64,000 nt of DNA, from positions 1 through 64,000 of the IMG/VR virus record IMGVR_UViG_3300035208_005614; one strand, written 5' to 3'. This document shows positions 11,735 to 63,783 of this stretch, piece by piece. The notes under the pieces are model-generated. The model worked only from the letters and a program-made list of their open reading frames with translations. It was not told the origin of the DNA and ran no database searches. The DNA is from a virus (Duplodnaviria; Heunggongvirae; Uroviricota; Caudoviricetes). How positions within the stretch are numbered: position 1 is the first letter of the stretch; every line of letters begins with the position of its first letter. A program made the translations under genes and the position numbers.

Positions 11735-12292
11735 TTATCTAAACCATTTATAATAGTTCTTCTGTTCATCTCCCCCTTTATCATAATCAGCATGGATTAC
11801 TTCTATTGGAAGCCTATATTGAATGCGATGCCACAACATGATAAGTCTTCCAACACGACCATTTCCATCCTCAAAAGGATGAATATTTTCAAACTGAATA
11901 TGAGACGTTTTTACAACAGATTTAGGAGAAAGTGACTCATCTTGTGAATAAATTAATATATCTTTACAAAAATTTTCAAGATCATCATTTATCAATTGCC
12001 ATGAAATAAAGGGTTTAACGTGCCCCCCTATCCACACATCACAATTACGGTATCTTCCCGCTATATCTGGTCGAAGATCTTTCATTAGAATTTTATGAAT
12101 TTTAAGTATTTTATTAGGTGTTAAATATTTTTGATATTTTAAGTAATTCCATGCTTTTTTTGCCTGAATAAAAGGTTCTAATCCCTCAACTCTTTCAATT
12201 GAATTTGATTCTCTGATAAAATCATCTATATTTTTGTTTCTTGTTGCTCTCTTTTTTAACTTTTGTTTTTTCATATCATTAATTTTTTTCAC
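11735..12292 (-). CDS. Fic/Doc-family protein (AMPylation-type enzyme)
   Basis: Canonical Fic motif HPFEDGNGRVGR. Confidence 0.8.
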   Translation of the reverse strand: MKKINDMKKQKLKKRATRNKNIDDFIRESNSIERVEGLEPFIQAKKAWNYLKYQKYLTPNKILKIHKILMKDLRPDIAGRYRNCDVWIGGHVKPFISWQLINDDLENFCKDILIYSQDESLSPKSVVKTSHIQFENIHPFEDGNGRVGRLIMLWHRIQYRLPIEVIHADYDKGGDEQKNYYKWFR

Positions 12293-29956: not shown

Positions 29957-30490
29957 ATGGAATCAACAGAACAAACAGTAAGTACACATACTAAAGGAGA
30001 AATTGAGGCACAAAAATACCTTAAACGCCTTGTTGCGCCCCACACAAAAGTAAGTAAAGAAGTTACAAATAAGGATCTAGATAAGGTAGTGGAAGAAGTT
30101 AAGATATTATATAACTTGTGCTATGTACAAAACGGGTTATATCTAGGAGCATATGCTATGCATCACTCACAGATCGAAGATAAAGATCCTATGAGTTTCT
30201 TTGTTATTGCAGATAAAAGAATCATTATAAACCCAAAGATAGTTAAACATAGTAATTATACCAAAGACTCTAAGGAACAATGTATGTCTTTTGCGAATGA
30301 AGGTCCAGTTGTTGTTCAGAGATGGCAAAAGATAGAACTTGAATATCAAACTATAATGACTGACCCAGAACATGATGGCAAATTTAAATTATCTGATATA
30401 ATTAAGGAATCATTAAGTGGTTTTGAAGCGTTTGTTATGCAACATGAAATCGATCATGGTAATGCAAAGTTTATTTATCAATTAAAATAA
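29957..30490 (+). CDS. def: Peptide deformylase-like protein
   Basis: Motif 3 QHEIDHGN (QHExDHxxG), motif 2-like EQCMSF (EGCLS) and a weaker motif 1 GLYLGAYAM. 177 aa. Confidence 0.6.
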   Translation: MESTEQTVSTHTKGEIEAQKYLKRLVAPHTKVSKEVTNKDLDKVVEEVKILYNLCYVQNGLYLGAYAMHHSQIEDKDPMSFFVIADKRIIINPKIVKHSNYTKDSKEQCMSFANEGPVVVQRWQKIELEYQTIMTDPEHDGKFKLSDIIKESLSGFEAFVMQHEIDHGNAKFIYQLK

Positions 30491-37600: not shown

Positions 37601-38825
37601 CAGTATCCATAGCTCCTTCAGCCATAGTAACGGCTTTTGCTGCATTAACAGCTCCTCCGAAAATTCCATCATATTCAAGAATTGGAACGGCCGCTGCTTT
37701 TGCTGCGCCTCCCATAAGACCAAGAGCTCCGAGTCCTTTCCCAACTAAACCTATACCTGTCATCATACCGACGATATTACCAGCTAAGTTAGTTACTTTT
37801 CCGAGGGTTCCAGATGATTCACTTGCTCCTGTTCCAGGGGCAATTCCTGCAGTAGCTCCTCCGACTAATCCTTTTGCAAACTCTCTAATTGGATCTGGCA
37901 ACCATCCTTCTCCGAATTGATCCATATTTTCTTTGAATGATTCTCCGAAATATTTCAATGCTCTTTTATCAAAAATTCCTACAGGTTTGCTAATTGCATC
38001 CTTCCATTGTTGTGCATATTTTTCTGCGACTTTAGTATCTAAATAACCTTTGTCATTAACTAGATTAATATCTGGAGCATCATCAACGTTTGTTTTCCAG
38101 TTTAAAGCCATCGCTTTTGCTTCGCTCTGAGTTATTTTTCCATTAGCAAGCAATGTTAAAGGAACTGCTTGTATAGCAGTTTTTTTGTCGTGAGATACAT
38201 TATCAAAAACTTCAAGATTTTTTAGTGTGTCTGCTCCACCTGCCCATAAAGGGACGATGTGGTCTACTTGGAATAAAGCAGGAGACAAATTACCGAGAAC
38301 TTGCTGTTTAACTCCTGGATTTATTTTATTATCCATGATTACACGATCAGATTTAATTAGTTTTCCAGGTTGAGTTGGATCAACAACATATTGTCCTCCC
38401 CCCATTGAGAGAGGAAGATTTCTAGCGACAACGGCAGATGATGGTGTAACCCAATTACCATTTGCATCTGGAGCAGTAAATTGACTATATCCTTCAGGTA
38501 AAGATTCTGTTGGAGTAAAAGTTGATGGAGCTACATAACCTGGAGCATAAGGAACAACTGGTGTCGGTTCTTTAAAAGCTTCTGTTATAGGAACTCCTAT
38601 AGGAAAATTATAATCAGTTGGAGCTTTTGTTGTTTTCGTTTTTCCTGTACCAAAAATAGCACCATAATCTGATACATTAAAGTGTGAATCTAGAGATCCT
38701 TTTACCACACTTGACGAAGTCTTCTGTGCGTTTTGTTGTAATTGTTTAGTTAAACCAGAAAGATTCGCAATTGATGGTTGCGAGCTAGGAGTACCATATT
38801 GCGTATTTTCAGGTAAATTAGCCAT
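31653..38825 (-). CDS. Giant tape-measure-like virion protein (2390 aa) with an N-terminal HNH-like motif and a C-terminal SleB-type cell-wall hydrolase domain
   Basis: Gly/Ala-rich hydrophobic tracts (GIGLVGKGLGALGLMGGAAKAAA...) as in tape-measure proteins. DHIVPLWAGGADTLKNLEV...H fits an HNH nuclease motif near residues 185-225. The C-terminus NRAVNDPDRYQGSLTKVLQAPYQYQAY...FYVHA resembles the Hydrolase_2 (SleB/CwlJ) domain. Confidence 0.65.
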   Translation of the reverse strand: MANLPENTQYGTPSSQPSIANLSGLTKQLQQNAQKTSSSVVKGSLDSHFNVSDYGAIFGTGKTKTTKAPTDYNFPIGVPITEAFKEPTPVVPYAPGYVAPSTFTPTESLPEGYSQFTAPDANGNWVTPSSAVVARNLPLSMGGGQYVVDPTQPGKLIKSDRVIMDNKINPGVKQQVLGNLSPALFQVDHIVPLWAGGADTLKNLEVFDNVSHDKKTAIQAVPLTLLANGKITQSEAKAMALNWKTNVDDAPDINLVNDKGYLDTKVAEKYAQQWKDAISKPVGIFDKRALKYFGESFKENMDQFGEGWLPDPIREFAKGLVGGATAGIAPGTGASESSGTLGKVTNLAGNIVGMMTGIGLVGKGLGALGLMGGAAKAAAVPILEYDGIFGGAVNAAKAVTMAEGAMDTAGLVTKKAIIDAGTETVGNIAWKKQAAEMLKGAGLLGTWGQIGQTGRQLTGQEEADLGAHMSQFFSDAAFGGLTAGYGQSIKGYLGVGLSATTLSLILGGNKENSIQEALKQGALMSALHMMGAPGKFEAGGATLGVNQGLKTIASDQAFKMASARMNSVVPELVPAVMKGETPIAQTKYDIPTAENFRQQFLKENPNDPSISRMPIQTQEDVTQLITRVAINRYGKIISEARASGNDFSQEDIDAELLGFGTAGNQLYNRTLDPGTQTYGVTTDPNIKPSAREQKEIQDLQSLVTQMKSKISPSKNNLRPEPAGDYSDILNSVPLDIQPAPEITADLSNLPTGDIPITGNAKGISAKNSINIGAYDKGVKGEQHSDQLYFVLDPKNERVSRVINFAELSQGRPAPIAKPEDTIRTFYIAETPNGRQIREVGYASTGERIDTRKFNFNENFRSMMNRIRQIRKASKTPQEFYDNLLKDQSKPSLTQEEANILFAENLSKIDNKTLLTRIKAENPLQKFDSNLNNSKIAQAMRDNGLSVLTANQSKLTKSNKSGEYFLAVNIKPENWAESIAFKGKSFEPIKKQVSSAISNIQEKVSTPLKEFTEEEVQSLKKQGFTSDQISYMERSKKGPLPVSNVTPEVTPEEIAQLKKQGMSQRLIDMIKKAKVAPKTTDTSFKSLSDAELPIIKPTEAPKTAQEMSKTLNEANTLPVAETNVQSALDTIEKAPERADPGQFKQTGRGKEGINEVALKEISDPKKRSDFTRAKLTEVAKSVSGNGETRQGIIDGWPTFLNDFTQKIKTASGNDAFEISDKRDLRDLKNLYTTLASSGARNEIIISDGKAQLKEGGTQNVGKIDLLTKDFNKANGLPENSMEVVHVGKDNDYSGGDKSYVKKSSNALNTLTDEMRNKSFVPIGITGKGIENTVFVKMEPKMVEKYDQNPTKYQNEGETLTTPEDKFTRVYMVDVLGMPKNIKDVDFVKRANLIFHRYDQYLGPEQTARLRTLKAETIGDTPEFKIDTSKFENPEGVEAKASVESFHGGKTQDGPFILGEDAFDKLIEGLGYDKNRHKGSVKIILDTTLNGEKSYHKGQAIKADEAIRNSYKETHGIEIGKNDVISFDSNAKIGPKLGDFNLPLSDIYGKDRSTTGSVSKISPSGERKFLSTDVGVSENKLIKVNQDVKDLQTLIDDIAKTKSNAELKEVFDKAVEKYPQLEKENLFQGAKQLSFGELSAAKNNLHFEINKILKNLVMENAINPTYKNSTMVTMVAPIKADYDGTGKTRYVNNHEIILGSEQIKSLGVKEGDYVVVSRDPSYDINNLAVLRVVDGTKSGNTSLAEENGIVSPFNERIILQGDQDADTMHVTKIGEGGMSQAEVDAIVKRGSLATPFTEVKSSTPELATNKTIKKVIKNQLVGDDQTSMISMASRIMDEVKDNNITIKVYGESDPKKYSQYEILSNGNVVEKGTTYNSKEDFTATPKWGTKERQLISQAQREAVDSKKSDDILKRTNDDPNWATKELWSVNSGETLNPISLTGALKNIQKPYGIKALGETANTVNDIFLGKVDAKTNQRIKQTGLAPTIEYYNNLKKAGTVLTPLQEKTLAASKLKSYDVTGEQKVIIHKEGAKAVSQAFKDKYNPNNSKLKDIISIAKKAKLEYQTNPGKEGKTIREKAKQRVENYFLKNLEEGNYTEADLDNISYWAATDKLANISWAEIYNKPKFIYLYRELIDASPKVANTYYQGSESFDPFSQVITPSAQNVVETVKEGKGGPDGQGGLMDDIGTGISNAWGNVKEKLLPGLTTTFRAKEEPTYDVRGIKVKDSDIDEAAAILYGEVSNRPDKQAFETKHIINTAINRAVNDPDRYQGSLTKVLQAPYQYQAYAPQGATSSNGKVKQSEYQKLKAGLINTTDNKKLQAIKDALNEMKSGKFNDTTGGKTFYVHASDGSLWLGSTQDEAKKAANAHEKQIKGVKTKWGTVRGLPILANE

Positions 38826-52467: not shown

Positions 52468-55400
52468 TTAAAAGAATCCTGCTATCTTGCCTACAGGTTT
52501 TGAATCTCGACCTTGTCCTACAAGTTTAACACTAGTACCTCTTCCTACAGGTTGCATCTTGTTTCCCTGTGCAACTGGTTTACTATCTGAAGGTGAAAAT
52601 CTGAATGATTCTGAAACAATTGATTCTGAGATGTTTATTTGATCTAAAACACTTATATCATAATAAAAACCTAATCTTATATCAGAATCAATCTCAATTT
52701 CATCAAAAACATTAATATCTCCAAGTTGTCCGTTATTTTCAACATTCTCTGAAATTTCTATATTTTCTGCTACTTGTATTCCAGTAAGAAGTAAATCTAC
52801 CAATTCAATATCCGATATTGAGATTGAATCGTATATATTTATATCTCCAAGTTGTGGGTTAGAAAGGATTACATTTTCTGAAATATTTATACCGTCAGAG
52901 ACGTTTATACCTCCAAGTAGAGGGTTCTCCTGATTATCGGTATCCAAAACATTGACAGAATCTGAGACATTAATTCCTCCCAAATAAGAATTACCCAAGA
53001 TAATATTTTCTGAAATCTCAACCAAATCTTTTACTGAGATCTCTTGTTCTCCTGTATCTTGGAAATTTTCAGAAATATTTATCGTATCAAAAATGTCGAT
53101 TCCTCCTAATTGAGAATTTTCTACAGTTACTTCTTCAGAGATCTCAATTGAATCGTATTTGTCTATACCTGACTCCAAATAATCAACTATTCCGATATCA
53201 TCAGAAACATTAATATCTCCTAGCTGAGAATTTTCTAAAGTAACCGATTCAAGAATATCAATAAGATCAAATACAGAGACTTCTTGTTCTCCTGTATCTT
53301 GGAAGTTTTCAGATATATTGATTATGTCGTTGACAGAAACATTCAATTCTCCTGTATTTGTAATATTTTCTGAAATATTTACATTATCAACAATATTTAT
53401 ATCTCCTAACTGAGAATTATTTATATTTAAATATTCAGATATGTTTACAATTTCTATAATATTTATAGATCCTAATTGCGAGTTACTTAATGCTACATTA
53501 TCTGAAATATTTATAGAATCAGTAGCAAAAATATTTCCAAGTTGAGTTCTTATGACCAAATCTTCTGAAATATTTATAGAATCAGTAGTAGAGATATCTC
53601 CTAACTTGGAGTTATCCAATACGACTTCTTCTGTAATATGAATCACATCGTCAACAATAATAATGAGACTTCCTCCACCTGTGCCGAAATCAACAATATC
53701 TACTTCATCTGAAACGTTGATTCCTCCTAGTTGAGAATTTGAAACGATGACTGACTCTGAAATATTTACTGTATCTATTACTGAAGTGCTTAATATCCCC
53801 GCGTCTGTAAAGTTTTCTGAAATATTTATGTTGTCTACAACAGAAATATCCCCTAACTGTCCAGTTAGATTTACATTTTCAGATATATCTATTGTGTCGT
53901 AAACACTTATTCCTCCTAGATTTGAGTTAGAAACGGTAACTGATTCAGAAATGTTGACTGAGTCTGAAACGTTAATACCTCCTAGATTTGAGTTAGAAAC
54001 GGTAACTGATTCAGAGATATTTACTGAGTCTGAGACGTTGATACCTCCTAGATTTGAGTTAGAAACTGTAACTGATTCAGTGATGTTTATTGAATCGTAT
54101 ACTGAAATATTCTCTTCTCCCATATCTACGACATTTTCTGATATATTGATGGTGTCAAAAACTGAAGTATTCAATACTCCTGTGTCTGTAAAGTTTTCAG
54201 AAATATTTATCGTGTCATAGATATTAATATTTCCTAGTTGTGAGTTTAGAACAATTACTGATTCTGAGATATTGATGGTATCAAATACTGAAGTATTCAA
54301 CACTCCTGTATCCGTAAAGTTTTCTGAAATATTTACTGTATCCGAAAGATTAATATCTCCTAACTGAGAGTTTGAAATGGTAATTGTTTCTGAGATATTT
54401 ACTGTGTCAGAAACATCAATGTTACCCAACTGAGAGTTTGAAATAGTAACTGACTCAGAAATGTCCACTGTGTCATAAACATTTATATCACCTAATTGAG
54501 AGTTTGAAATAACAACTGACTCTGAAATATTTATTGTGTCAAAAACTGAGATAGAACTGAATCCTGTATCTGTAAAGTTTTCTGAGATATTTATTGAATC
54601 TGAGACATTAATATCTCCAAGATTTATAGAGGAATTGGTTGATTCTGAAACATTAATTGAATCATAAACATTAATAGTTCCTAGTTGAGTATTCGTGACT
54701 ATAAATGATTCTGAGATATTTACTATATCTATTATATTAATTTCTCCAAGAGTAGTTGAAGAAATAATTGATTCTGAAATATTTATTGTGTCTGATACGT
54801 TTATGTTTCCTAGTTGAGAATTTGAAATTACAACTGACTCTGAAATATTTATGGTATCTATTACTGAGGTACTTAATACACCTGTATCTGTAAAGTTTTC
54901 TGAAATATTTATTGAATCTGAAACATTTATGTCTCCTAGTTGAGAGTTTGAAACAGTAGTTAATTCTGAGATATTTATAGAATCATATACATTAATTTCT
55001 CCTAATTGAGAGTTTGTAAGTGTAACTGATTCAGATATGTTTATAGAATCATATACGTTAATTCCTCCTAGCTGAGAATTTGAAACAACAACCGATTCAG
55101 ATATATTAACTAAATCAACAACTGAAATATTTGAGACTCCAGTATCTGTAACATTTTCTGAGATGTTTATTGAATCTACAACGGAAATATCTCCTAACTG
55201 ACCAGTTAGACTGATACTTTCAGAGAAATTTATTGAATCAAAAACGTTGATATCACCTAACTGAGAGATTGAAACTATGACTGATTCAGAGATATCTACT
55301 AAGTCTGAAACGTTGATACCTCCTAGATTTGAGTTAGAAACTGTAACTGATTCAGAGATATTTACTGAATCCGAAACGTTGATGTTTCCTAGACTTGAAT

Positions 55401-58400
55401 TAGAAACACTTATTGATTCAGACATATTTATTGAATCAAAGACATTTATTCCTCCTAACTGAGTATTTGTAAGTGTAACTGATTCAGAAATATTAATAGA
55501 ATCGTAAACAGAAAGAGAGAATAAACCTGAATCTACAAAATTCTCAGAAATATTTATTGTGTCAAAAACATTAATGTCTCCTAATTGAGAATTTGAAATG
55601 GTAACTGACTCTGAAATATTTATAGTGTCATAAAGATTTATATAAGAAAGTATAGAATCAGTTAAATCTTCTGAGATATTTATTGAATCATATATATTTA
55701 TTCCTCCTAACTGAGCGCTTGTAAGAGTAACTGATTCAGAAATGTTTACTGAATCATAAAGATTTACATCTCCAAGAGGAGATCTAACTACAACTGACTC
55801 AGAGACATTAATTGAATCAGATAAAACATCGTCACCATATATTCCAAAAGCAAAACCTGGTGTATCTCTTGTCCAAGTCCCTCCAGAATAATATGCAGAA
55901 TCTCCCACTGCAGTTGACTGATCAATTGGAGCAAAAGTCTGGAAACCATAATCTCCAGTTGTTGACTCAACGGTCATGTAATAATGACCTGGAGCTAGAG
56001 AAATTATATTAGCTCCAGAAAATGTGAAGGTTGTGTAAGGACCTGGGAATGACCAATTAAGCGTATTAGCCTCTATTTGGTCTGATACGGCAAGTAATGT
56101 GCCTGGGATAGAATTAACCCCGTAGGTGCCAGAATCTGTGTAAATACGGGCTGTTAGATAACCTGTGCGTCCTCCATTTCTATACAAATAACGACTTGTA
56201 GTTCTTACTCTTGTTGTTTGACTGATTGTAAATGTTTCCCCAAAGGCATAATCTGTATAACCTATTCCACTATTTGTAAGATTTAAAGCATAATAATCAA
56301 GTAAGGTTGTGGTACTAGTTATATACAAAAATCCTTCATCCACTATATTTTCAGAAATATTTATATCATCTCCAACATCTATTGATAAATCATTAATAGG
56401 CGGAAGAACTGAAACACTTTCAGATATATTAATATCTTCTCTTGGATGTCTATCTTCAGCAACATAAAAAATAAGATCGTCATTTGCACCTATTCCAGGT
56501 AAACCAACCCAATTACCTCCTAATTTAACAGATGCATTACCTGGATGAGTTGGAGAGCCCAAATCACTGTAAATTAATAAGGTTCCACTTGTCGGAGTAG
56601 ACTCAATTGTTATTACATAATATTGACTTGCTGTAAGTGCTATTTTATTTATTCCCGAGAAATTAAAATAGATTATTCCATTTGAAGCAGGAATCGTTGA
56701 AATGTCTATTGAATCAGAAGTAGCAAGTAATGTATCTGGTATTGAATCATAACCAAACGTTCCTGTCATCGTGTAGATCTTTGAAACTACAGTTCCTGTT
56801 GCTCCATTACCATTTAGATAGAATCCAGAAAAATCTAAGGTTCTATTTGCTTTACATAGGAATGATTGTCCGAAGAATTGAAAACCGTAGAATGTACTAT
56901 TTGCATGAGTATAATCATAACTATCTATGTAATTAAGATTTCCAATGTCTCCAAGTTGTCCTGTGTTTGTTACACTTTCAGAGATATTTATTACATCATA
57001 ACTAATAACTATTAAAGGATTAACTTGGTATGATTCAGAAATATTTACTGTGTCATATGTATTTGCATATAAGAATGGATTTTCTATAGTAACGGATTCA
57101 GATATATTAACGACATCGTTTAATATTGGATGACCGTGAGCAATAAAGACAGTATTATAATTTTGTAACGCAGTCCAAACACCTCCACTCTGAGAAGCAG
57201 AATTACCGTTTGTAAAATTCTCTGGTGTATTAGCTGAGACTACTGGGTTGTTAGATGCTCCTCCACCTGGAAAATCAAAAACTAAGAAATAATCTGTATT
57301 TTCACTTAATGAAATTCTATTACTTCCTGAAAATGGGAAATTAAAATACGCACCACTTCCGCTATATGGAGGTAAAGTAGAAGCTTCAACTGAATCTGAT
57401 GTAGCCAAAGCACTCCCTGTAGGAACAGCATCAACTCCATATGTTCCCGTTGAAGCATATATTTCGACATAAATAGGTCCTGAAGGAGCGTTAAATTTAG
57501 CCAAAAGAACATCAACACTATCCAAGATCATTGAAGTTGTGCTCTTTGTCCCCTGTGCCCACGCATGATTAGCATACAAACCTCCATACCATGCGCCAGA
57601 TACAGTAGTAAAACTATCGTAAATAACGACATTTTTAATTATGTCTCCTAACTGTCCTGTATCGTTGGGAACATCTGAAATATTTAATGTATCGTAAAGA
57701 TTAATTCCTCCTAACTGAGTACTTGAAAGAGTCTTTGATTCAGAAATATTTATTGTATCTACGACAGAAACAGCTAGGGGTTCTTCAGAATTTTCACTTT
57801 CAGATATGTTTATGGAATCAAAAATAGATACGCTTAATGGTTCTTCTACATTAATACTTTCTGATACATTTATTGAGTCATATACATTTATTCCTCCTAA
57901 CTGAGCGTTTGTAAGAGTAACCGATTCAGAAATGTTTATTGAATCATAAAGATTTATATCTCCAAGTTGAGATTCTGTGATTGTTTTTGACTCTGATATA
58001 TTTACTGAATCATATAGATTTATTCCGCCTAGATTTGGATTAGAAATTGTAACTGACTCAGAGATGTTTACTGAATCATATAGACTTATATTTACGTCAA
58101 GAGTTTCTGTAATACTTTCTGATATATCTATTGAATCATATATATTTATTCCTCCTAGATCTGGATTAGAAATAGTAACTGATTCAGATATATTTACTGA
58201 GTCATCTTTATTTATTCCTCCGAGTTGAGAATTTGTAACAATTACATCTTCTGAAGTATCTATTGAATCATATAAATTAATACTTCCTAGTTGCCCTGTT
58301 CTAGTTATAGATTCAGAAATATTTATATCGTCATGAACATTTATTCCGCCAAGTTGCCCTGTTCTAGTTATAGATTCTGATATATTTATGTCATCGTGAA

Positions 58401-60510
58401 CACTAAGAGGTAGTATGGGACTTGCTGAAATGGTTACGTCAGCATCTTCTGTAATATTAATAGTTTCATATTTAAGAAATTGGGTAGAGATAATTTCAAC
58501 TTGTGGAACACCGTTATAAACTGCAAAATAAAGATCGTCAGTATAACCAGTCCATGTTGTGCCGTTGGAAGAACCACATCTATTTCCTCCTGCTCCAGTT
58601 CCTCCACCTCCTATTTGTAAATAATTACCTCCATCTCCCCCTGGATAGTAAAAAACTAAACAATAATAAGTTGCCGCCGACATGAGATATCTACCCGCTA
58701 CTTCAAAATCAAAAGAGACTTCTTGAAAAGCAGAAGTTGAAATAGTTTGTACATTTACCCCTTTAGAGGTAGCAAGAGCAGCACCAGTTGGTTTACCTGA
58801 AGTCGTTCCGTAAGTTCCCGTGTGCGCGTATAATTTAGCATAGATAAAACCTGTAGGGTTAGTGTACCTTTTAAAATAACCTATTCCTTTCCCTAAAATA
58901 CCAGCATTGGTATTTGTAAAAGATTGACCTGAATATGGAGCGGCACTATAAATAGTTAAATAACCTGGTGCAGAAAGATAATTTTCAATTAAATAAGTTA
59001 CATAAAGAGGTTCAGCAGCAACATTTAAATCATCATGAACTTGAATTTCAAGATAATGAATTACCGTTGTAGATTCTGATATATTAATTAATTGGTTTTG
59101 ATATGTTTCTCTAGCGTTAAGAACTTTTAATTCAACCCAACCTTCATTAATAAAAATACTTTCTATTCTACTTACGTACTCTATAGGTGTAGTTAAAGCA
59201 ACAGTAATACTCTCTGAAATATTAACTTTTTCAGGTATAAAAACTTGTCTTTGGACGAGATCTTCTATTTTTATTCTATCAAAAACCGAAAGGGGCAAAG
59301 AAATTGCGACTTTAACATCTTCCCTTATTTTTGGAGATTCAAAATTATATCCTTGCCATTTAGTTGCTGTCCCCACCGTTAATCCAGTAGGTGCTTCCTG
59401 AATACCTATATCATCGTGAACATAGATATTTATATTATTAGGATCGTTTATTTCTATAGAATTGAATACATGAGATGTCCCAGAATTCCAACAATATAAT
59501 CCTCCAAGAACCCACATATTTCTTTCTGTTACTCCAGAAACAGATCTAACAAGAACTCCATCAAGCCAGAAGGTAATATTCCCGTTTAGATCGTAAATAA
59601 TTTCATAAGTTCTTTCTACTGTTCCGTATCCTGAACCTATCGCAATTTGTGTTGTTCCTGCCTGTGTAATCAAAACACCTGAAGATTCCCATCTATATAA
59701 GAAAGAATAACTATTTGTAGGACCTGAAAAACCGATGTTATAATAAGAACCTGCTGTCGAGGTAAATTTGGCAATAAATTTAATAGACATTCCAGGATTA
59801 ATCAATGGAACTCTATAATTTATTGAAGATCTAGGACCACTTCCCGTTAATCCAGTTAGAGTCAAAAGACCCCCAGAAGCCGCCCATTGAGCTGGAAAAG
59901 TGGGTTCTGCCCAGTACATAAGATCAAGAACATTTAACTTAGTATTACCGTTAAATGGTTCAAACCATGGTGTTGCTGGTGGAAAAACATCAACAGAATC
60001 AACATTCATGATCATTCCTGAGTCATAAACGTTACCGAATTGGACTTTAAGATCTGAATCTAAGATTGCAGTAAGTGATCTATAAACAAGAGCTCCATCA
60101 ATAAAAAAGTTTGCAAATCCATTAGGTAACCATTCTATTTCAAAATTGTGTTGTGTAGCGTTAGCTACTATTCCAGTATTAAAATAAGTGTTTACAGTTC
60201 CATTGTAAATTTGGATATAAATATATGTTGCTCTATCCCAAGTCTGAGCAAAGGCGATAGTATCTGTTGGACCTACAAAACCTAAAGCGTGTCCGCTCAA
60301 TGCAGTATCTGGACAGTTTGCTCTAAAAGAAAGAGTTGTACCAGGACCAAAAGTATCATTGCTTCTAACTATACAAGTGGGGCTTCCTGCTCCTCCACCA
60401 GTAAGTTTAAGCATTCCACTAGCAATAGTAACGTTACCCGCGTATGTCCATTCCGCGGTGTTTATAGGTAAACTATCAAATGTGTCTATTAATCTCGGTA
60501 CGATCGACAT
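52468..60510 (-). CDS. Giant 2680-aa repeat protein: four paralogous lectin-like domains plus more than 50 copies of a 22-aa repeat
   Basis: Uninterrupted 8 kb ORF. The 22-aa repeat unit approximates SNSQLGDINVYDSINISESVTV. Four about 150-aa paralogous domains (..TGTYG...P.G.ALATSD.I...T......F.F.G.N.I.L....YY..) lie in the N-terminal half. Probable receptor-binding fibre. Confidence 0.7.
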   Translation of the reverse strand: MSIVPRLIDTFDSLPINTAEWTYAGNVTIASGMLKLTGGGAGSPTCIVRSNDTFGPGTTLSFRANCPDTALSGHALGFVGPTDTIAFAQTWDRATYIYIQIYNGTVNTYFNTGIVANATQHNFEIEWLPNGFANFFIDGALVYRSLTAILDSDLKVQFGNVYDSGMIMNVDSVDVFPPATPWFEPFNGNTKLNVLDLMYWAEPTFPAQWAASGGLLTLTGLTGSGPRSSINYRVPLINPGMSIKFIAKFTSTAGSYYNIGFSGPTNSYSFLYRWESSGVLITQAGTTQIAIGSGYGTVERTYEIIYDLNGNITFWLDGVLVRSVSGVTERNMWVLGGLYCWNSGTSHVFNSIEINDPNNINIYVHDDIGIQEAPTGLTVGTATKWQGYNFESPKIREDVKVAISLPLSVFDRIKIEDLVQRQVFIPEKVNISESITVALTTPIEYVSRIESIFINEGWVELKVLNARETYQNQLINISESTTVIHYLEIQVHDDLNVAAEPLYVTYLIENYLSAPGYLTIYSAAPYSGQSFTNTNAGILGKGIGYFKRYTNPTGFIYAKLYAHTGTYGTTSGKPTGAALATSKGVNVQTISTSAFQEVSFDFEVAGRYLMSAATYYCLVFYYPGGDGGNYLQIGGGGTGAGGNRCGSSNGTTWTGYTDDLYFAVYNGVPQVEIISTQFLKYETINITEDADVTISASPILPLSVHDDINISESITRTGQLGGINVHDDINISESITRTGQLGSINLYDSIDTSEDVIVTNSQLGGINKDDSVNISESVTISNPDLGGINIYDSIDISESITETLDVNISLYDSVNISESVTISNPNLGGINLYDSVNISESKTITESQLGDINLYDSINISESVTLTNAQLGGINVYDSINVSESINVEEPLSVSIFDSINISESENSEEPLAVSVVDTINISESKTLSSTQLGGINLYDTLNISDVPNDTGQLGDIIKNVVIYDSFTTVSGAWYGGLYANHAWAQGTKSTTSMILDSVDVLLAKFNAPSGPIYVEIYASTGTYGVDAVPTGSALATSDSVEASTLPPYSGSGAYFNFPFSGSNRISLSENTDYFLVFDFPGGGASNNPVVSANTPENFTNGNSASQSGGVWTALQNYNTVFIAHGHPILNDVVNISESVTIENPFLYANTYDTVNISESYQVNPLIVISYDVINISESVTNTGQLGDIGNLNYIDSYDYTHANSTFYGFQFFGQSFLCKANRTLDFSGFYLNGNGATGTVVSKIYTMTGTFGYDSIPDTLLATSDSIDISTIPASNGIIYFNFSGINKIALTASQYYVITIESTPTSGTLLIYSDLGSPTHPGNASVKLGGNWVGLPGIGANDDLIFYVAEDRHPREDINISESVSVLPPINDLSIDVGDDINISENIVDEGFLYITSTTTLLDYYALNLTNSGIGYTDYAFGETFTISQTTRVRTTSRYLYRNGGRTGYLTARIYTDSGTYGVNSIPGTLLAVSDQIEANTLNWSFPGPYTTFTFSGANIISLAPGHYYMTVESTTGDYGFQTFAPIDQSTAVGDSAYYSGGTWTRDTPGFAFGIYGDDVLSDSINVSESVVVRSPLGDVNLYDSVNISESVTLTSAQLGGINIYDSINISEDLTDSILSYINLYDTINISESVTISNSQLGDINVFDTINISENFVDSGLFSLSVYDSINISESVTLTNTQLGGINVFDSINMSESISVSNSSLGNINVSDSVNISESVTVSNSNLGGINVSDLVDISESVIVSISQLGDINVFDSINFSESISLTGQLGDISVVDSINISENVTDTGVSNISVVDLVNISESVVVSNSQLGGINVYDSINISESVTLTNSQLGEINVYDSINISELTTVSNSQLGDINVSDSINISENFTDTGVLSTSVIDTINISESVVISNSQLGNINVSDTINISESIISSTTLGEINIIDIVNISESFIVTNTQLGTINVYDSINVSESTNSSINLGDINVSDSINISENFTDTGFSSISVFDTINISESVVISNSQLGDINVYDTVDISESVTISNSQLGNIDVSDTVNISETITISNSQLGDINLSDTVNISENFTDTGVLNTSVFDTINISESVIVLNSQLGNINIYDTINISENFTDTGVLNTSVFDTINISENVVDMGEENISVYDSINITESVTVSNSNLGGINVSDSVNISESVTVSNSNLGGINVSDSVNISESVTVSNSNLGGISVYDTIDISENVNLTGQLGDISVVDNINISENFTDAGILSTSVIDTVNISESVIVSNSQLGGINVSDEVDIVDFGTGGGSLIIIVDDVIHITEEVVLDNSKLGDISTTDSINISEDLVIRTQLGNIFATDSINISDNVALSNSQLGSINIIEIVNISEYLNINNSQLGDINIVDNVNISENITNTGELNVSVNDIINISENFQDTGEQEVSVFDLIDILESVTLENSQLGDINVSDDIGIVDYLESGIDKYDSIEISEEVTVENSQLGGIDIFDTINISENFQDTGEQEISVKDLVEISENIILGNSYLGGINVSDSVNVLDTDNQENPLLGGINVSDGINISENVILSNPQLGDINIYDSISISDIELVDLLLTGIQVAENIEISENVENNGQLGDINVFDEIEIDSDIRLGFYYDISVLDQINISESIVSESFRFSPSDSKPVAQGNKMQPVGRGTSVKLVGQGRDSKPVGKIAGFF
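52560..55890. repeat. 66-bp-period coding tandem repeat, about 50 units
   Basis: Direct reading of the DNA shows reiterated ...AATATTTCAGA(G/A)ATATTTAT(T/G)GAATC... units. Shorter runs lie at about 57650-58450 and in the two downstream genes. Confidence 0.7.
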
Positions 60511-61584: not shown

Positions 61585-61656
61585 CATAGTACTAGCTCTT
61601 CGAGTAGGATTCGGACCTACGATCTATCGCTTAACAGGCGATGGCTTTACCACTAA
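61585..61656 (-). tRNA. tRNA-Asn (anticodon GUU)
   Basis: Hand-folded cloverleaf: acceptor TCTTCGA/TCGAAGA, D GCTT/AAGC, anticodon stem ATCGC/GCGAT with loop CUGUUAA, T-arm GTAGG-TCCGAAT-CCTAC. Coordinates within about 2 nt. Confidence 0.75.
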
Positions 61657-61661
61657 GCTAT

Positions 61662-61732
61662 CGAAGAATATGCTGGGGAAGATGGAATCGAACCACCATT
61701 AATCGCTTCAGAGGCGATCTTACTACCTTTAT
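61662..61732 (-). tRNA. tRNA-Gln (anticodon CUG)
   Basis: Acceptor TGGGGAA/TTCCCCA, anticodon stem ATCGC/GCGAT with loop CUCUGAA, T-arm GGTGG-TTCGATT-CCATC. Confidence 0.7.
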
Positions 61733-61750
61733 AAGATTCCCCAATTTGTA

Positions 61751-61822
61751 CTTTCTAACTGCTGGGGATCTTGGGTTCGAACCAAGCTACACGGCTTCAA
61801 GGGCCGTTGAACTACCAACTAT
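61751..61822 (-). tRNA. tRNA-Gln (anticodon UUG)
   Basis: Acceptor TGGGGAT/ATCCCCA, D GAAT/GTTC, anticodon stem ACGGC/GCCGT with loop CCUUGAA, T-arm CTTGG-TTCGAAC-CCAAG. Confidence 0.8.
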
Positions 61823-61835
61823 TCTAATCCCCAAT

Positions 61836-62198
61836 TTACCATTTTTTACCTTTTTTTCTAGCAGTTAATCTCCACTTTTTTCTAACCTCATTATAAGCAT
61901 TCATACAAAGTCTACATCTACATTTATGATGTCTATACATTGAATACATTCCATGTTTTGATTCCCCGTTATCAATCTTATTCTTTTCTTTGTGACATAT
62001 ATGACAAAGTAATTGACACTTAGAAACTTCTAATAAAACTTTTTGTATAGAATAAGACCATTTTTCTGTTATGGTAAATTTTTTTGTTTTAGGATCAATA
62101 TGATCAAACTCTAATCCTTCTTTACTTCCACAAACAACACATTTTCCTCCTAATAATTCTATTAATAAACTAATTCTTTTTTTATAATGTCTTATCAT
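61836..62198 (-). CDS. HNH endonuclease embedded in the tRNA array
   Basis: CVVCGSKEGLEFDHIDPKTKKF...LLCHICHKEKN is a canonical HNH pattern (C..C...DHI.P.....N..LC..CH..K). Confidence 0.6.
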   Translation of the reverse strand: MIRHYKKRISLLIELLGGKCVVCGSKEGLEFDHIDPKTKKFTITEKWSYSIQKVLLEVSKCQLLCHICHKEKNKIDNGESKHGMYSMYRHHKCRCRLCMNAYNEVRKKWRLTARKKGKKW

Positions 62199-62313
62199 TA
62201 GTATATCCTACCATAATACTTTAAAATGTCCTACCCTGCGGGCCGAGAAGGACTTGCACCCTCATTTTCCGCTTTGGAGACGGAAGTGTTTCTATTACAC
62301 TATCAACCCAATG

Positions 62314-62386
62314 GGTAACTATTGGGAATTGAACCCAACCTAAGAGTTTCACAAACTCCTGTGCGAACCGATACACTACAGTCACC
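62314..62386 (-). tRNA. tRNA-His (anticodon GUG) with an encoded G-1
   Basis: Extra 5' G opposite the C73 discriminator, acceptor GTGACTG/TAGTTAC (two G-U pairs), anticodon loop UUGUGAA, T-arm TTGGG-TTCAATT-CCCAA. Confidence 0.75.
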
Positions 62387-62389
62387 ATG

Positions 62390-62473
62390 TGCGTAAAAGA
62401 GGACTCGAACCTCTAACTCCTTTCGAAGACAACATTTTAAGTGTTGCGCGTATACCACTTCCGCCATTCACGC
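62390..62473 (-). tRNA. tRNA-Leu (anticodon UAA), class II
   Basis: Acceptor GCGTGAA/TTTACGC, anticodon stem CAACA/TGTTG with loop CUUAAAA, long variable arm of about 16 nt, T-arm AGAGG-TTCGAGT-CCTCT. Confidence 0.8.
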
Positions 62474-62477
62474 ATTG

Positions 62478-62551
62478 TGCACGAAAGAGGACTCGAACCT
62501 CTAGATCTTGGTTTTTGAAACCAATACGTTTACCAATTTCGTCATTCGTGC
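62478..62551 (-). tRNA. Atypical tRNA with anticodon CAA: Leu-like acceptor and T-arm but only a 5-nt variable loop
   Basis: Acceptor GCACGAA/TTCGTGC and T-arm AGAGG-TTCGAGT-CCTCT are shared with the two tRNA-Leu genes. Anticodon stem TTGGT/ACCAA with loop UUCAAAA. The variable region is only GATCT. Confidence 0.55.
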
Positions 62552-62555
62552 CCTG

Positions 62556-62626
62556 AGCCTCTCGTTAGAATCGGACTAACGTCTAAAGTTTACAAAACTA
62601 TCGTTCTACCATTGAACTAGAAAGGC
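62556..62626 (-). tRNA. tRNA-Thr (anticodon UGU), tentative
   Basis: Acceptor GCCTTTC/GAGAGGC (one G-U), D GTTC/GAAC, anticodon loop UUUGUAA on a stem with one mismatch, T-arm GTTAG-TCCGATT-CTAAC (unusual C55). Confidence 0.55.
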
Positions 62627-62670
62627 TTAATGTGACCGTCATCGACAAGAAACCGACACTACGTCACATG

Positions 62671-62754
62671 TGCACAAAAAGGGACTCGAACCCCCACCCC
62701 CTTTCGGAGATCAGTTTCTAAGACTGATGCGTATACCAATTCCGCCATTCGTGC
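62671..62754 (-). tRNA. tRNA-Leu (anticodon UAG), class II
   Basis: Acceptor GCACGAA/TTTGTGC, anticodon stem TCAGT/ACTGA with loop CUUAGAA, variable arm of about 15 nt, T-arm GGGGG-TTCGAGT-CCCTT. Confidence 0.8.
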
Positions 62755-62848
62755 AGAGTTCCACAATTAATTGCTAAGTTAATTAGCCTATCAAGTACCT
62801 TAAAAAAGGTACAGTGGAACTATATTGTCCAATCCGAAGATTGGAGTG

Positions 62849-62919
62849 TGCCATGAGATGGAATCGAACCACCGTGTCCTGTGCTTCAAACAGGAGTTTT
62901 ACCATTAAACTATCAGGGC
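62849..62919 (-). tRNA. tRNA-Phe (anticodon GAA)
   Basis: Acceptor GCCCTGA/TCATGGC (one C-U mismatch at 4:69), D GTTT/AAAC, anticodon stem CCTGT/ACAGG with loop UUGAAGC, T-arm GGTGG-TTCGATT-CCATC. Confidence 0.65.
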
Positions 62920-63104
62920 TATAATTCACTATAACATCCCTACTCTTGTTAAATGGCTCTGACGAGCTCCAGGGTTTTATATTTATAGTGGTGGCATCCG
63001 AGCCCCCGCTTACGCGGTGACTTGGCAAATTCGAAATTGGAACTTTTACTTTCAGCCACTTATCCAACTTCTAGAGAACCTAGTAACAAGACGGTTCCCT
63101 TGTG

Positions 63105-63176
63105 AGCATCGAGCTGGAATCGAACCAGCGCATGATAGTTTTGCAAACTATCGTCTTACCACTTGACTACCGATGC
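63105..63176 (-). tRNA. tRNA-Cys (anticodon GCA)
   Basis: Acceptor GCATCGG/TCGATGC, anticodon stem ATAGT/ACTAT with loop UUGCAAA, T-arm GCTGG-TTCGATT-CCAGC, discriminator U. Confidence 0.75.
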
Positions 63177-63180
63177 TTGG

Positions 63181-63261
63181 TGCATGTAGTTGGAATCGAA
63201 CCAACAGTGCCCGCGGGCGAAGGTTTTACAGACCCCTAGAATTCCACTATCTGATACATGC
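63181..63261 (-). tRNA. tRNA-Tyr (anticodon GUA), class II
   Basis: Acceptor GCATGTA/TACATGC, anticodon loop CUGUAAA, variable arm containing the GCCCGCGGGC hairpin, T-arm GTTGG-TTCGATT-CCAAC. Confidence 0.7.
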
Positions 63262-63262
63262 G

Positions 63263-63334
63263 TAGCAGGTAGGAGAATCGAACTCCTTTGAAGAGGTTAT
63301 GGGCCTCCCGACTTAACCATCCGTCTCACCTGCG
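63263..63334 (-). tRNA. tRNA-Met (anticodon CAU; elongator, initiator or Ile2-type not resolved)
   Basis: Anticodon stem GGAGG/CCTCT with loop CCCAUAA (C33), T-arm AGGAG-TTCGATT-CTCCT, acceptor CGCAGGT/ACCTGCT with a C1:U72 mismatch. Confidence 0.6.
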
Positions 63335-63350
63335 ATAAACTATTCAATTG

Positions 63351-63421
63351 TCAGAGAACTAGGGATCGAACCTAGGCCGTATGTTTCCAGAACACAAATG
63401 CTTCCGCTACACCATACTCTG
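63351..63421 (-). tRNA. tRNA-Pro (anticodon UGG), tentative
   Basis: Acceptor CAGAGTA/TTCTCTG (one mismatch), anticodon stem TGTGT/ACATA with loop UCUGGAA (C33), T-arm CTAGG-TTCGATC-CCTAG. Confidence 0.55.
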
Positions 63422-63432
63422 ATAAAGAACTG

Positions 63433-63507
63433 AGGGCAAGGCTGGTATCGCACCAGCTTCATTTCGGGGTATTAGCACGACGCTCTACTCTTAGTCGCTA
63501 CCTGCCC
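63433..63507 (-). pseudogene. Aberrant tRNA-like element (possible tRNA pseudogene)
   Basis: A good acceptor-like closing helix (GGGCAGG/CTTGCCC) and a T-arm-like hairpin GCTGG-TGCGATA-CCAGC, but no consistent D or anticodon arms could be drawn. Confidence 0.3.
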
Positions 63508-63712
63508 TTATTTTAACTTAATATTTGATGGAATGTCAAAATCTTTTCTATCTATCCTTCTCAAAAAGGCTCTTATATTCCTATGAGGTTTATAATTCCA
63601 TCCTTTCTGTTTGTATTTATTTATATCTTTATTTTTCATTACGCTATTGCAGAACATAATAGGTTGGATGGTCCGTAGCGAGCGGAGTCCATTAGTTTCA
63701 TTCTGCTACCTG

Positions 63713-63783
63713 CGGGACTAGCGGGAATCGAACCCGCACTTAATGTTAGACAAACAATAGTTCTGCCACTAAACTATAGTCCC
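63713..63783 (-). tRNA. tRNA-Asp (anticodon GUC)
   Basis: Acceptor GGGACTA/TAGTCCC (perfect), D GTTT/GAAC, anticodon loop UUGUCUA, T-arm GCGGG-TTCGATT-CCCGC, discriminator G. Confidence 0.75.

What the first reader, a model, noticed from the sequence alone, without database searches (positions are those of the whole stretch)
62478..62551. Leu-like tRNA (anticodon CAA) that has lost the long variable arm
Its acceptor stem (GCACGAA/TTCGTGC) and T-arm (AGAGG-TTCGAGT-CCTCT) are identical or near-identical to those of the neighbouring tRNA-Leu(UAG) and tRNA-Leu(UAA). Yet the variable region is only 5 nt (GATCT), which makes it a class-I-shaped tRNA with a leucine anticodon. Bacterial LeuRS relies on the long variable arm as an identity element. 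This molecule may therefore be mis-charged, charged by a different synthetase, act as a decoy, or be a recent deletion derivative.
Basis: seen in the sequence. Interest (0 to 1): 0.55.

Follow-up and report, generated by a model that had tools for sequence, protein, structure and literature searches.

The report
Short-armed leucine tRNA in phage
A phage tRNA gene cluster contains a well-formed leucine tRNA (anticodon CAA) that lacks the long extra arm leucine tRNAs normally carry; such "type I" leucine tRNAs turn out to be common in phage tRNA clusters and one bacterial example has been studied, so this is a new example of a little-noticed but known kind.

Summary
On the minus strand at 62478-62551 lies a 74-nt tRNA with anticodon CAA, a 5-nt variable loop (GATCT) and discriminator A73. 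It scores 65.3 bits against the Rfam tRNA model, second best of the 15 tRNAs in this array. Its body is leucine-type: U8-A14, A15-U48, G18G19, A20a, and a 3-bp D stem with a 13:22 mismatch. Its closest relatives are its own two long-armed Leu neighbours.

However, S. coelicolor work shows that not every LeuRS charges type I tRNALeu.

The tRNA is not unique. I collected 146 distinct short-armed Leu tRNAs, almost all from phage contigs. They show 99% A73, 97% U48 and very strong stem covariation. Examples occur in T5-like, Vibrio, Aeromonas and Proteus phages.

With a probe blind to arm length, 27-59% of phage-array Leu(CAA) genes were short, against 0 of 116 in cellular genomes. Ser and Tyr tRNAs kept their arms.

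Best reading: a functional type I tRNALeu(CAA) that decodes UUG and is charged by the host LeuRS. Charging and expression remain untested. New member of a known kind.

The parts
62478..62551 (-). Type I (short variable loop) tRNA-Leu(CAA), 74 nt up to discriminator A73 (62478). No CCA is encoded: the next bases are C, A, A, U.
   Evidence: ARAGORN; Rfam 65.3 bits; parse.
62515..62517 (-). Anticodon CAA in the loop UUCAAAA. The loop has U33 and A36-A37-A38, the context modified to i6A37 in E. coli tRNAs that read UNN codons (my knowledge).
   Evidence: Sequence; CM alignment.
62503..62507 (-). 5-nt variable loop GAUCU. U48 (62503) can pair with A15 as the Levitt pair of tRNALeu.
   Evidence: A15/U48 is present in 136 of 140 family members.
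62526..62542 (-). Leu-type D arm ACGAAAUUGGUAAACGU: a 3-bp stem (A10-U25, C11-G24, G12-C23), an A13/A22 mismatch, and a 9-nt loop with A14, A15, G18G19 and A20a.
62389..62473 (-). Neighbouring type II tRNA-Leu(UAA), 85 nt. Its T arm is identical to that of the short tRNA.
62670..62754 (-). Neighbouring type II tRNA-Leu(UAG), 85 nt. Its 5' acceptor strand is identical to that of the short tRNA.
61595..63783 (-). Co-oriented array of 15 tRNA genes. Spacers around the Leu(CAA) gene are 3 nt, implying one precursor transcript. A second sample shows no further tRNA within the 7.5 kb upstream of the array.
63510..63539 (-). Promoter-like site TTGACA-18-TAAAAT (11 of 12 matches) upstream of most of the array. 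This is a consensus match only.
   Evidence: The total number of such sites in the region is not above chance.

Best explanation
This is a functional phage-encoded type I tRNALeu(CAA).

Proposed mechanism:
- It is transcribed with the other 14 tRNAs of the array.
- It is cut out by the host's tRNA-processing enzymes and given its CCA end by the host CCA-adding enzyme.
- It is charged with leucine by the host LeuRS, which reads A73 and the D/T-loop elbow (U8-A14, A15-U48, G18G19, A20a) rather than the variable arm.
- It decodes UUG. Together with the phage's long-armed Leu(UAA) and Leu(UAG) it covers the phage's main Leu codons.

It most likely arose within this phage lineage by duplication of a long-armed Leu gene, loss of the arm and a change of anticodon arm. 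Arm loss is tolerated specifically in Leu tRNAs, which explains why short-armed Leu tRNAs are frequent in phage tRNA arrays while Ser and Tyr tRNAs keep their arms.

Shown: gene structure, Leu-type body, family-wide conservation and covariation, and distribution. Inferred: transcription, processing, charging with leucine, and decoding.
For: (1) Canonical tRNA: 65.3 bits against Rfam, second best of the array, with all stems perfectly paired.

(2) Leu identity set of the E. coli type: A73, U8, A14, A15/U48, G18G19, A20a, and a 3-bp D stem with a 13:22 mismatch. The set is as listed in PMC9976931.

(3) The body is Leu-like independently of the anticodon. With the anticodon arm and V region removed, 24 of the 25 nearest among 1364 unique tRNAs are Leu, including cellular Leu(CAA) genes.

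(4) It has evolved under constraint since duplication. Its anticodon stem is unlike both neighbours yet perfectly paired, and the D stem shows a compensated G10-C25 to A10-U25 change.

(5) The same architecture recurs in 146 unique short Leu tRNAs, almost all from phage contigs.
- A73 in 145 of 146, U48 in 141 of 146, 5-nt V loop in 126 of 146.
- The full Leu signature is present in 121 of 140 short Leu, against 24 of 879 other class I tRNAs of the same loci.
- 97.9% of stem cells are paired, 19 of 21 pairs show double changes, and the covariation score is 0.93, against 0.23 when shuffled and at most 0.14 when slid.

(6) Cultured phages carry them annotated as tRNA-Leu: T5_ev212 Leu(UAA) 77 nt, Vibrio JSF10 Leu(UAG), and Aeromonas, Proteus and Xanthomonas phages.

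(7) The arm loss is Leu-specific and phage-specific (Fisher tests).
- In arrays found with an arm-blind probe: Leu 15 short / 44 long, against Ser plus Tyr 0 / 31 (p=0.002).
- Array Leu(CAA) genes: 7-27 short against 19 long. Cellular genomes: 0 short / 116 long (p<=3e-6).

(8) Published biochemistry. Arm-less E. coli tRNALeu is still charged. The Aquifex delta-V-arm variant mainly loses affinity. S. coelicolor type I tRNALeu(CAA) is leucylated and could not be deleted.

(9) UUG is in real use in the phage ORFs: 200 of 1337 Leu codons.
Against: - There are no expression or charging data for this tRNA or, as far as I could find, for any phage type I tRNALeu.
- The host is unknown. LeuRS enzymes differ: E. 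coli and S. purpurogeneiscleroticus LeuRS failed to charge the Streptomyces type I tRNALeu(CAA), and a LeuRS domain (the LSD) decides this.
- No orthologue from a related phage could be found. The only other copy comes from the same phage at 99.9% identity and is identical. Conservation of this particular gene therefore cannot be tested.
- T5 itself lacks the short Leu(UAA) that its relatives carry, so such genes can be dispensable.
- The similarity to its neighbours could reflect gene conversion rather than origin.
Confidence: 0.75

Rival explanations
1. Non-functional relic: a duplicated Leu gene that lost its variable arm by deletion and is decaying, or is transcribed but never charged.
For: - Its nearest relatives are its two neighbours.
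- No orthologues are available to show purifying selection.
- Some LeuRS enzymes cannot charge type I tRNALeu.
- T5 has lost the equivalent gene present in its relatives.
Against: - Not one stem pair is broken, and every conserved tertiary nucleotide is kept; it scores 65 bits, above 13 of its 14 array neighbours.
- The anticodon stem has been completely replaced relative to both neighbours while staying perfectly paired, and the D stem change is compensated. This is not expected of neutral decay.
- The same design is maintained with strong covariation in 140 distinct genes.
Confidence: 0.1
2. Defence-evading tRNA: a functional Leu tRNA whose lack of the long arm is itself the selected trait. 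It would make the tRNA invisible to host nucleases or toxins that recognise or cut the variable arm of class II tRNAs, so phage translation of Leu codons survives when host tRNALeu is attacked.
For: - Precedent for the arm as a target: retron-Eco7 and Septu cleave the variable arm of tRNATyr, and T5 tRNATyr resists through its distinctive variable loop (PMC13096335).
- VapC52 cuts the variable loop of tRNASer (PMC13273310).
- Human SLFN11 targets type II tRNAs (cited).
- Short Leu tRNAs are enriched in phage arrays and absent from 116 cellular genes.
Against: - No bacterial defence is known to target the tRNALeu arm; the bacterial Schlafen studied cuts anticodon arms of class I tRNAs.
- The phage keeps long-armed Leu(UAA) and Leu(UAG) beside the short one.
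- Relaxed constraint plus compaction explains the Leu-specific pattern equally well, since only LeuRS tolerates arm loss.
Confidence: 0.12
3. Mis-acylated or reassigning tRNA: in class I shape it is charged by a synthetase other than LeuRS (for example PheRS, since CAA differs from GAA only at position 34) and inserts another amino acid at UUG.
For: - It has class I geometry.
- A35, A36, A73, A26 and U20 overlap the E. coli tRNAPhe identity set (my knowledge plus the sequence).
- Some LeuRS enzymes reject type I tRNALeu.
Against: - The body is Leu-type, not Phe-type: best Phe match 62% against 73-83% for Leu.
- It has C34 rather than G34, A10 rather than G10, and G59 rather than U59.
- UUG is used at an ordinary frequency in phage ORFs.
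- The short Leu family spans anticodons CAA, UAA, UAG, AAG, GAG and CAG, all with the same Leu signature. That fits leucine and no single other amino acid.
Confidence: 0.03

Closest known systems
Streptomyces coelicolor type I tRNALeu(CAA) (Fan et al., NAR 2019, PMC6614811)
   Same: A Leu tRNA from the bacterial world with anticodon CAA and a short variable loop. It coexists with long-armed Leu isoacceptors and a single LeuRS. U8-A14 and loop length matter for charging.
   Different: It is a chromosomal, apparently essential cellular gene rather than part of a phage array. A73 is reported not to be an identity element there, whereas A73 is nearly invariant in the phage family (145 of 146). I did not compare the sequences.
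Short-armed tRNA-Leu genes of cultured phages: T5-like phages (e.g. T5_ev212 Leu(UAA), 77 nt), Vibrio phage JSF10/JSF12 Leu(UAG), and Aeromonas, Proteus and Xanthomonas phages
   Same: Phage tRNA-array genes with a Leu anticodon, a 5-nt variable loop ending in U48, A73, and the AAUUGGUA D loop on a 3-bp D stem.
   Different: They have other anticodons, encode CCA, and are only 60-70% identical in the body. The window tRNA is closer to its own long-armed neighbours than to any of them, so it may represent an independent arm loss.
Short-variable-loop tRNALeu(TAG) in horizontally acquired tRNA gene clusters of Mycobacterium (PMC6582537)
   Same: A short-armed Leu isoacceptor that occurs only in a tRNA gene cluster, while the core-genome copy has the normal long arm.
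   Different: It is reported in a bacterial chromosome, mentioned in one sentence, and not analysed further.
Animal mitochondrial tRNALeu
   Same: Type I shape. Leucine identity is carried by A73 and A14 without a long arm.
   Different: It is an organellar, structurally relaxed tRNA with a dedicated LeuRS. The phage tRNA has a fully canonical elbow and stems.
Engineered arm-less E. coli tRNALeu (Larkin et al. 2002; Asahara et al. 1993/1998, as summarised in PMC9976931)
   Same: These show that A73 plus the D/T-loop tertiary set is sufficient for E. coli LeuRS. The window tRNA retains that same set.
   Different: They are laboratory constructs assayed in vitro, not natural genes.

Membership tests
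tRNA (Rfam RF00005) | Cloverleaf with 7/4(3)/5/5-bp stems, a 7-nt anticodon loop with U33, the T loop UUCRANY, and G18G19 | tested here: met
   65.3 bits against a gathering score of 29, full-length alignment; ARAGORN.
tRNA-Leu (bacterial, E. coli-type identity set) | Discriminator A73 | tested here: met
   A at 62478.
tRNA-Leu (bacterial, E. coli-type identity set) | Tertiary set: U8-A14, A15-U48, G18G19 and A20a in a 9-nt D loop; 3-bp D stem with unpaired 13:22 | tested here: met
   All are present. The combination occurs in 2.7% of non-Leu class I tRNAs of the comparison loci.
tRNA-Leu (bacterial, E. coli-type identity set) | Leucine anticodon (NAG/YAA; A35 common to all isoacceptors) | tested here: met
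   CAA at 62515-62517.
tRNA-Leu (bacterial, E. coli-type identity set) | Is aminoacylated with leucine by LeuRS | not testable with these tools
   This needs an aminoacylation assay with the host enzyme, and the host is unknown.
Class II (type II) tRNA | Variable arm of more than 10 nt forming a stem-loop | tested here: not met
   The variable region is 5 nt (GAUCU). The neighbours have 15 nt.
Type I tRNALeu (as in S. coelicolor tRNALeu(CAA), mitochondria and phage arrays) | Leu anticodon and Leu-type body with a 4-5 nt variable loop | tested here: met
Phage-array short-armed Leu family collected here (146 unique genes) | Located in a co-oriented phage tRNA array; A73, A15/U48 and a 5-nt V loop | tested here: met
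   Common descent with the other members is not shown: the window gene is closer to its own long-armed neighbours.

The most novel reading that the evidence does not exclude
Loss of the long variable arm in phage Leu tRNAs is an adaptive counter-defence. Arm-less tRNALeu would escape host nucleases or toxins that recognise or cleave the class II variable arm, as retron-Eco7 and Septu do for tRNATyr. Phages would have evolved it repeatedly, the window gene being one independent event. It is possible for Leu, unlike Ser and Tyr, because LeuRS does not need the arm.
Probability: 0.12. Interest if true: 0.75.

Novelty: new member of a known kind. Interest (0 to 1): 0.38.

Why it matters
The gene itself is a further example of a type I tRNALeu. 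That design has been shown to work in Streptomyces and mitochondria and is already annotated, without comment, in many phage genomes.

The wider pattern found while checking it is more useful. Short-armed Leu tRNAs make up roughly a quarter to a half of Leu(CAA) genes in phage tRNA arrays. None was found among 116 cellular genes, and Ser and Tyr tRNAs keep their arms.

This contradicts the textbook statement, repeated in a 2023 review, that tRNALeu is long-armed everywhere except animal mitochondria. It is a natural confirmation that bacterial LeuRS does not use the arm for identity. It also raises a testable question: is arm loss neutral compaction, or evasion of arm-directed tRNA nucleases?

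In practice, annotation pipelines should not flag these genes as pseudogenes or odd isotypes.

Tried and rejected
- Alternative fold or anticodon: rejected. The CM alignment and the perfect 5-bp anticodon stem leave only CAA.
- Orthologous locus in related phages: not found.
  - Megablast and blastn against 50,697 phage records gave only generic tRNA hits.
  - An exact 39-mer search in IMG/VR gave 0 hits.
  - Relatives of the adjacent 169-aa protein (45-51% identity) carry no tRNAs nearby.
  - The D-arm/anticodon pattern hit only an unrelated huge phage.
  - My first metagenome scan used a mis-spaced pattern and could not have matched. The corrected scan gave six unrelated short Leu(CAA) genes, at most 53 of 75 identical.
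- Look-up by identical protein: found the same phage at 99.9% identity with an identical tRNA, which is uninformative for selection.
- Host inference from RecA or a structural protein against cultured phages: RecA at most 46% identical, structural protein no match.
- Phage-encoded synthetase or CCA enzyme: none found. I scanned 39 window ORFs and 6 ORFs beyond the window end; the two giant ORFs and a few small ones were not scanned. Only part of the genome is visible.
- T5 as experimental precedent: rejected. T5 itself has only a long-armed Leu(UAG); the short Leu(UAA) is in its relatives.
- A second class II to class I conversion in the same array (ARAGORN's 72-nt 'Ser(gga)'): rejected. It is better read as tRNA-Pro(UGG).
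- Literature: seven searches found no systematic description of short-armed Leu tRNAs in phages. I did not search subscription-only papers.

Full report
**1. What is there**

The window is a 33% G+C stretch of an uncultivated tailed phage. It encodes GroEL, RecA, SbcCD-like proteins, a primase-helicase, a peptide deformylase, an SU10-type adaptor and two giant ORFs. No close relative exists among 50,697 deposited phage genomes.

Its right end carries a co-oriented, minus-strand array of 15 tRNA genes at 61595-63783. An HNH endonuclease gene is embedded in the array. The flagged interval is one of these genes.

ARAGORN calls tRNA-Leu(caa) at 62477-62551. Rfam's tRNA model matches 62478-62551 at 65.3 bits, the second-best score in the array, with every column aligned at top posterior probability.

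Read on the minus strand, the tRNA is GCACGAA UG ACGAAAUUGGUAAACGU A UUGGU UUCAAAA ACCAA GAUCU AGAGG UUCGAGU CCUCU UUCGUGC A.
- All stem pairs are Watson-Crick.
- The anticodon loop has U33 and A36-A37-A38.
- The variable region is five nucleotides.
- The discriminator is A.

That includes the identity of the 5' acceptor strand with Leu(UAG) and of the T arm with Leu(UAA). No alternative tRNA fold is available. The thermodynamic minimum-energy fold rearranges only the D/anticodon region, and a cloverleaf lies 1.5 kcal/mol above it.

**2. Is it leucine-like apart from its anticodon?**

Yes. It has the D-arm design typical of tRNALeu:
- a 3-bp D stem with positions 13 and 22 unpaired;
- a 9-nt D loop AAUUGGUAA with A14, A15, G18G19 and A20a;
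- U8, U48 (the partner of A15) and A73.

These are the elements that a 2023 review lists as the E. coli leucine identity set (PMC9976931).

In the comparison loci, the combination A73 + A15 + U48 + 3-bp D stem with a 13:22 mismatch occurs in 121 of 140 short Leu-anticodon tRNAs. It occurs in only 24 of 879 other class I tRNAs.

I removed the anticodon arm and variable region and compared the rest with 1364 unique tRNAs of all isotypes. Of the 25 nearest, 24 were Leu tRNAs, including chromosomal bacterial Leu(CAA) genes.

**3. The premise about LeuRS**

Published work says otherwise for the two bacterial systems studied in depth.
- In E. coli, neither the anticodon nor the long arm is crucial, and variants lacking both arms remain active.
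- In Aquifex aeolicus, removing the arm mainly lowers affinity, and the arm holds no identity nucleotides (PMC2377443).
- Sequence-specific arm recognition is archaeal.

A natural precedent exists. Streptomyces coelicolor has a type I tRNALeu(CAA). It is charged by the organism's single LeuRS, and the authors could not delete it (PMC6614811).

The same paper gives the main caveat. E. coli LeuRS and S. purpurogeneiscleroticus LeuRS did not charge that tRNA, and the leucine-specific domain of LeuRS decides the matter. Chargeability by an unknown host enzyme therefore cannot be taken for granted.

**4. It is not alone**

I ran two pattern scans of IMG/VR.
- The first was a scan for 'CAA loop, short spacing, T loop'.
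- In those loci ARAGORN found many short Leu tRNAs with other anticodons. Short/long counts were: caa 93/6, taa 27/12, tag 36/17, aag 10/1, gag 5/11, cag 2/2.
- In the same loci, Ser was 5/82 and Tyr 2/38.

Cultured phages have these genes too, annotated simply as tRNA-Leu. Examples are the T5-like phage T5_ev212 (Leu(UAA), 77 nt), Vibrio phages JSF10/JSF12 (Leu(UAG)), and Aeromonas, Proteus and Xanthomonas phages. A 636-kb uncultured phage carries short Leu(CAA) and Leu(AAG) side by side. T5 itself has only a long-armed Leu(UAG).

Across 146 unique short Leu tRNAs, almost all from phage contigs, A73 is present in 145, U48 in 141, and a 5-nt variable loop in 126.

An alignment of 140 of them fits the cloverleaf very well.
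- 97.9% of cells are paired.
- 19 of 21 pairs show changes on both sides.
- The covariation score is 0.93, against 0.23 for shuffles and at most 0.14 for slid partners.
- A15/U48 is kept in 136 of 140.

This is a functional family, not a collection of decaying genes.

**5. How specific is it to phages and to leucine?**

The second probe covered only the D loop and anticodon loop, so it was blind to arm length. I split the hits by context.
- In tRNA arrays (at least two other tRNAs within 1.5 kb), newly found loci alone gave 7 short and 19 long genes. Including re-found loci gave 27 short and 19 long.
- Solitary hits were 37 long and 1-2 short. I take most of these to be host genes beside prophages.
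- In the newly found arrays, Leu was 15 short / 44 long, Ser 0/23 and Tyr 0/8.

The same probe on one genome per bacterial and archaeal species returned 116 tRNA(CAA) genes, all long-armed.

Fisher tests:
- phage arrays against cellular genomes, p = 3e-6 to 1e-18;
- Leu against Ser plus Tyr, p = 0.002.

The fractions are therefore rough.

The pattern matches what synthetase biology predicts. SerRS requires the arm. Bacterial TyrRS contacts it (my knowledge). LeuRS does not need it.

**6. Origin of this copy**

Most short Leu tRNAs are closest to short Leu tRNAs of other contigs. The window gene is the exception among the 19 short tRNAs that share a contig with a long-armed Leu.
- Its body is 83% identical to its Leu(UAG) neighbour and 79% to its Leu(UAA) neighbour.
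- It is at most 73% identical to anything else.

The simplest reading is duplication of a long-armed gene in this lineage followed by arm loss. That would make arm loss recurrent. Gene conversion among neighbours, or the absence of sampled relatives, could produce the same picture.

The event is not fresh. The anticodon stem differs from both neighbours at every pair yet pairs perfectly, and G10-C25 has become A10-U25.

I could not obtain an orthologous locus. The only other copy is from the same phage at 99.9% identity in an ENA assembly, and the tRNA there is identical.

**7. How it most likely works**

- *Transcription.* The gene sits 3 nt from its neighbours on both sides. A promoter-like TTGACA-18-TAAAAT lies upstream of most of the array at 63539-63510 (a consensus match only). 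Co-transcription and standard processing are inferred.
- *3' end.* No CCA is encoded, so CCA addition is required.
- *Decoding.* In the phage ORFs the Leu codon counts are UUA 497, CUU 417, UUG 200, CUA 154, CUC 57 and CUG 12. The three phage Leu tRNAs (UAA, CAA, UAG) cover the codons in use.
- *Charging enzyme.* No synthetase or tRNA-maturation enzyme was found among the ORFs scanned.

I put 0.75 on 'functional Leu-accepting tRNA that decodes UUG'. The remainder is divided among three rivals:
- a relic (0.10);
- a version in which arm loss is itself a selected counter-defence (0.12);
- mischarging (0.03).

The counter-defence idea has real precedent for tRNATyr and tRNASer arms. It has none yet for Leu.

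**8. Verdict**

- It is a new member of a known kind.
- Interest is moderate. It comes mainly from the phage-wide, Leu-specific pattern, which the standard reviews do not mention.

Noticed in passing
window 63350-63421 (-): ARAGORN's 72-nt 'tRNA-Ser(gga)' has no long arm. The Rfam alignment instead places the anticodon stem at UGUGU/ACAUA with loop UCUGGAA, giving anticodon UGG (Pro) with an unusual C33. C1-G72 and A73 fit bacterial tRNA-Pro. CCA and CCU are used 259 and 266 times against 41 for UCC, and the array has no other Pro tRNA. Probably a mis-called tRNA-Pro.
   Followed up: partly
window 62755-62848 (-), spacer between tRNA-Phe and tRNA-Leu(UAG): The spacer folds into a hairpin (CCAAUCUUCGGAUUGG) plus a multibranch element closed by an 8-bp stem. 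A second sample of the same phage (L358) is 99.9% identical over 13 kb, yet 10 of its 12 differences fall inside 62760-62824. Several are compensatory: outer stem U-A to C-G, inner hairpin C-G to A-U. This may be a fast-evolving structured small RNA of unknown role.
   Followed up: partly
window 63433-63507 (-): A tRNA-like sequence below Rfam's threshold (25.7 bits against 29), with an atypical T loop (UGCGAUA). ARAGORN does not call it. It lies directly downstream of the best promoter-like site at 63539-63510.
   Followed up: no
window 61836-62198 (-): A 120-aa HNH endonuclease gene sits inside the tRNA array (phrog_4234, E=1e-31). Homing endonuclease genes are likewise found in the tRNA regions of T4 (SegB) and T5 (heg genes).
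   Followed up: no
window 62920-63103: A 180-nt stretch inside the array with no tRNA call on either strand and no Rfam match. A terminator-like hairpin lies on the opposite (+) strand at 62955-62976.
   Followed up: no
window 63262-63334 (-): The tRNA-Met(cat) gene scores only 32.4 bits, with a gapped acceptor/D junction. In the first scan it was listed as a weak tRNA-Sec-like match at 24.6 bits. Whether it is an initiator, an elongator or an Ile2-type tRNA is undetermined.
   Followed up: no
L125 3994-4154 (uncultured 636-kb phage LR756504.1); also L350, L351: Two adjacent short-armed Leu tRNAs, Leu(caa) of 75 nt and Leu(aag) of 76 nt, lie in the same array as long-armed Leu(taa) and Leu(tag) and three long-armed Ser tRNAs.
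   Followed up: partly
window 29957-30490 (+), 8096-9751 (-), 11735-12292 (-): The phage encodes a peptide deformylase, a GroEL-type chaperonin and a Fic-domain protein. It also has two very large ORFs of 2390 and 2680 aa, at 31653-38825 and 52468-60510. The 2680-aa ORF contains internal repeats of about 120-150 nt.
   Followed up: no
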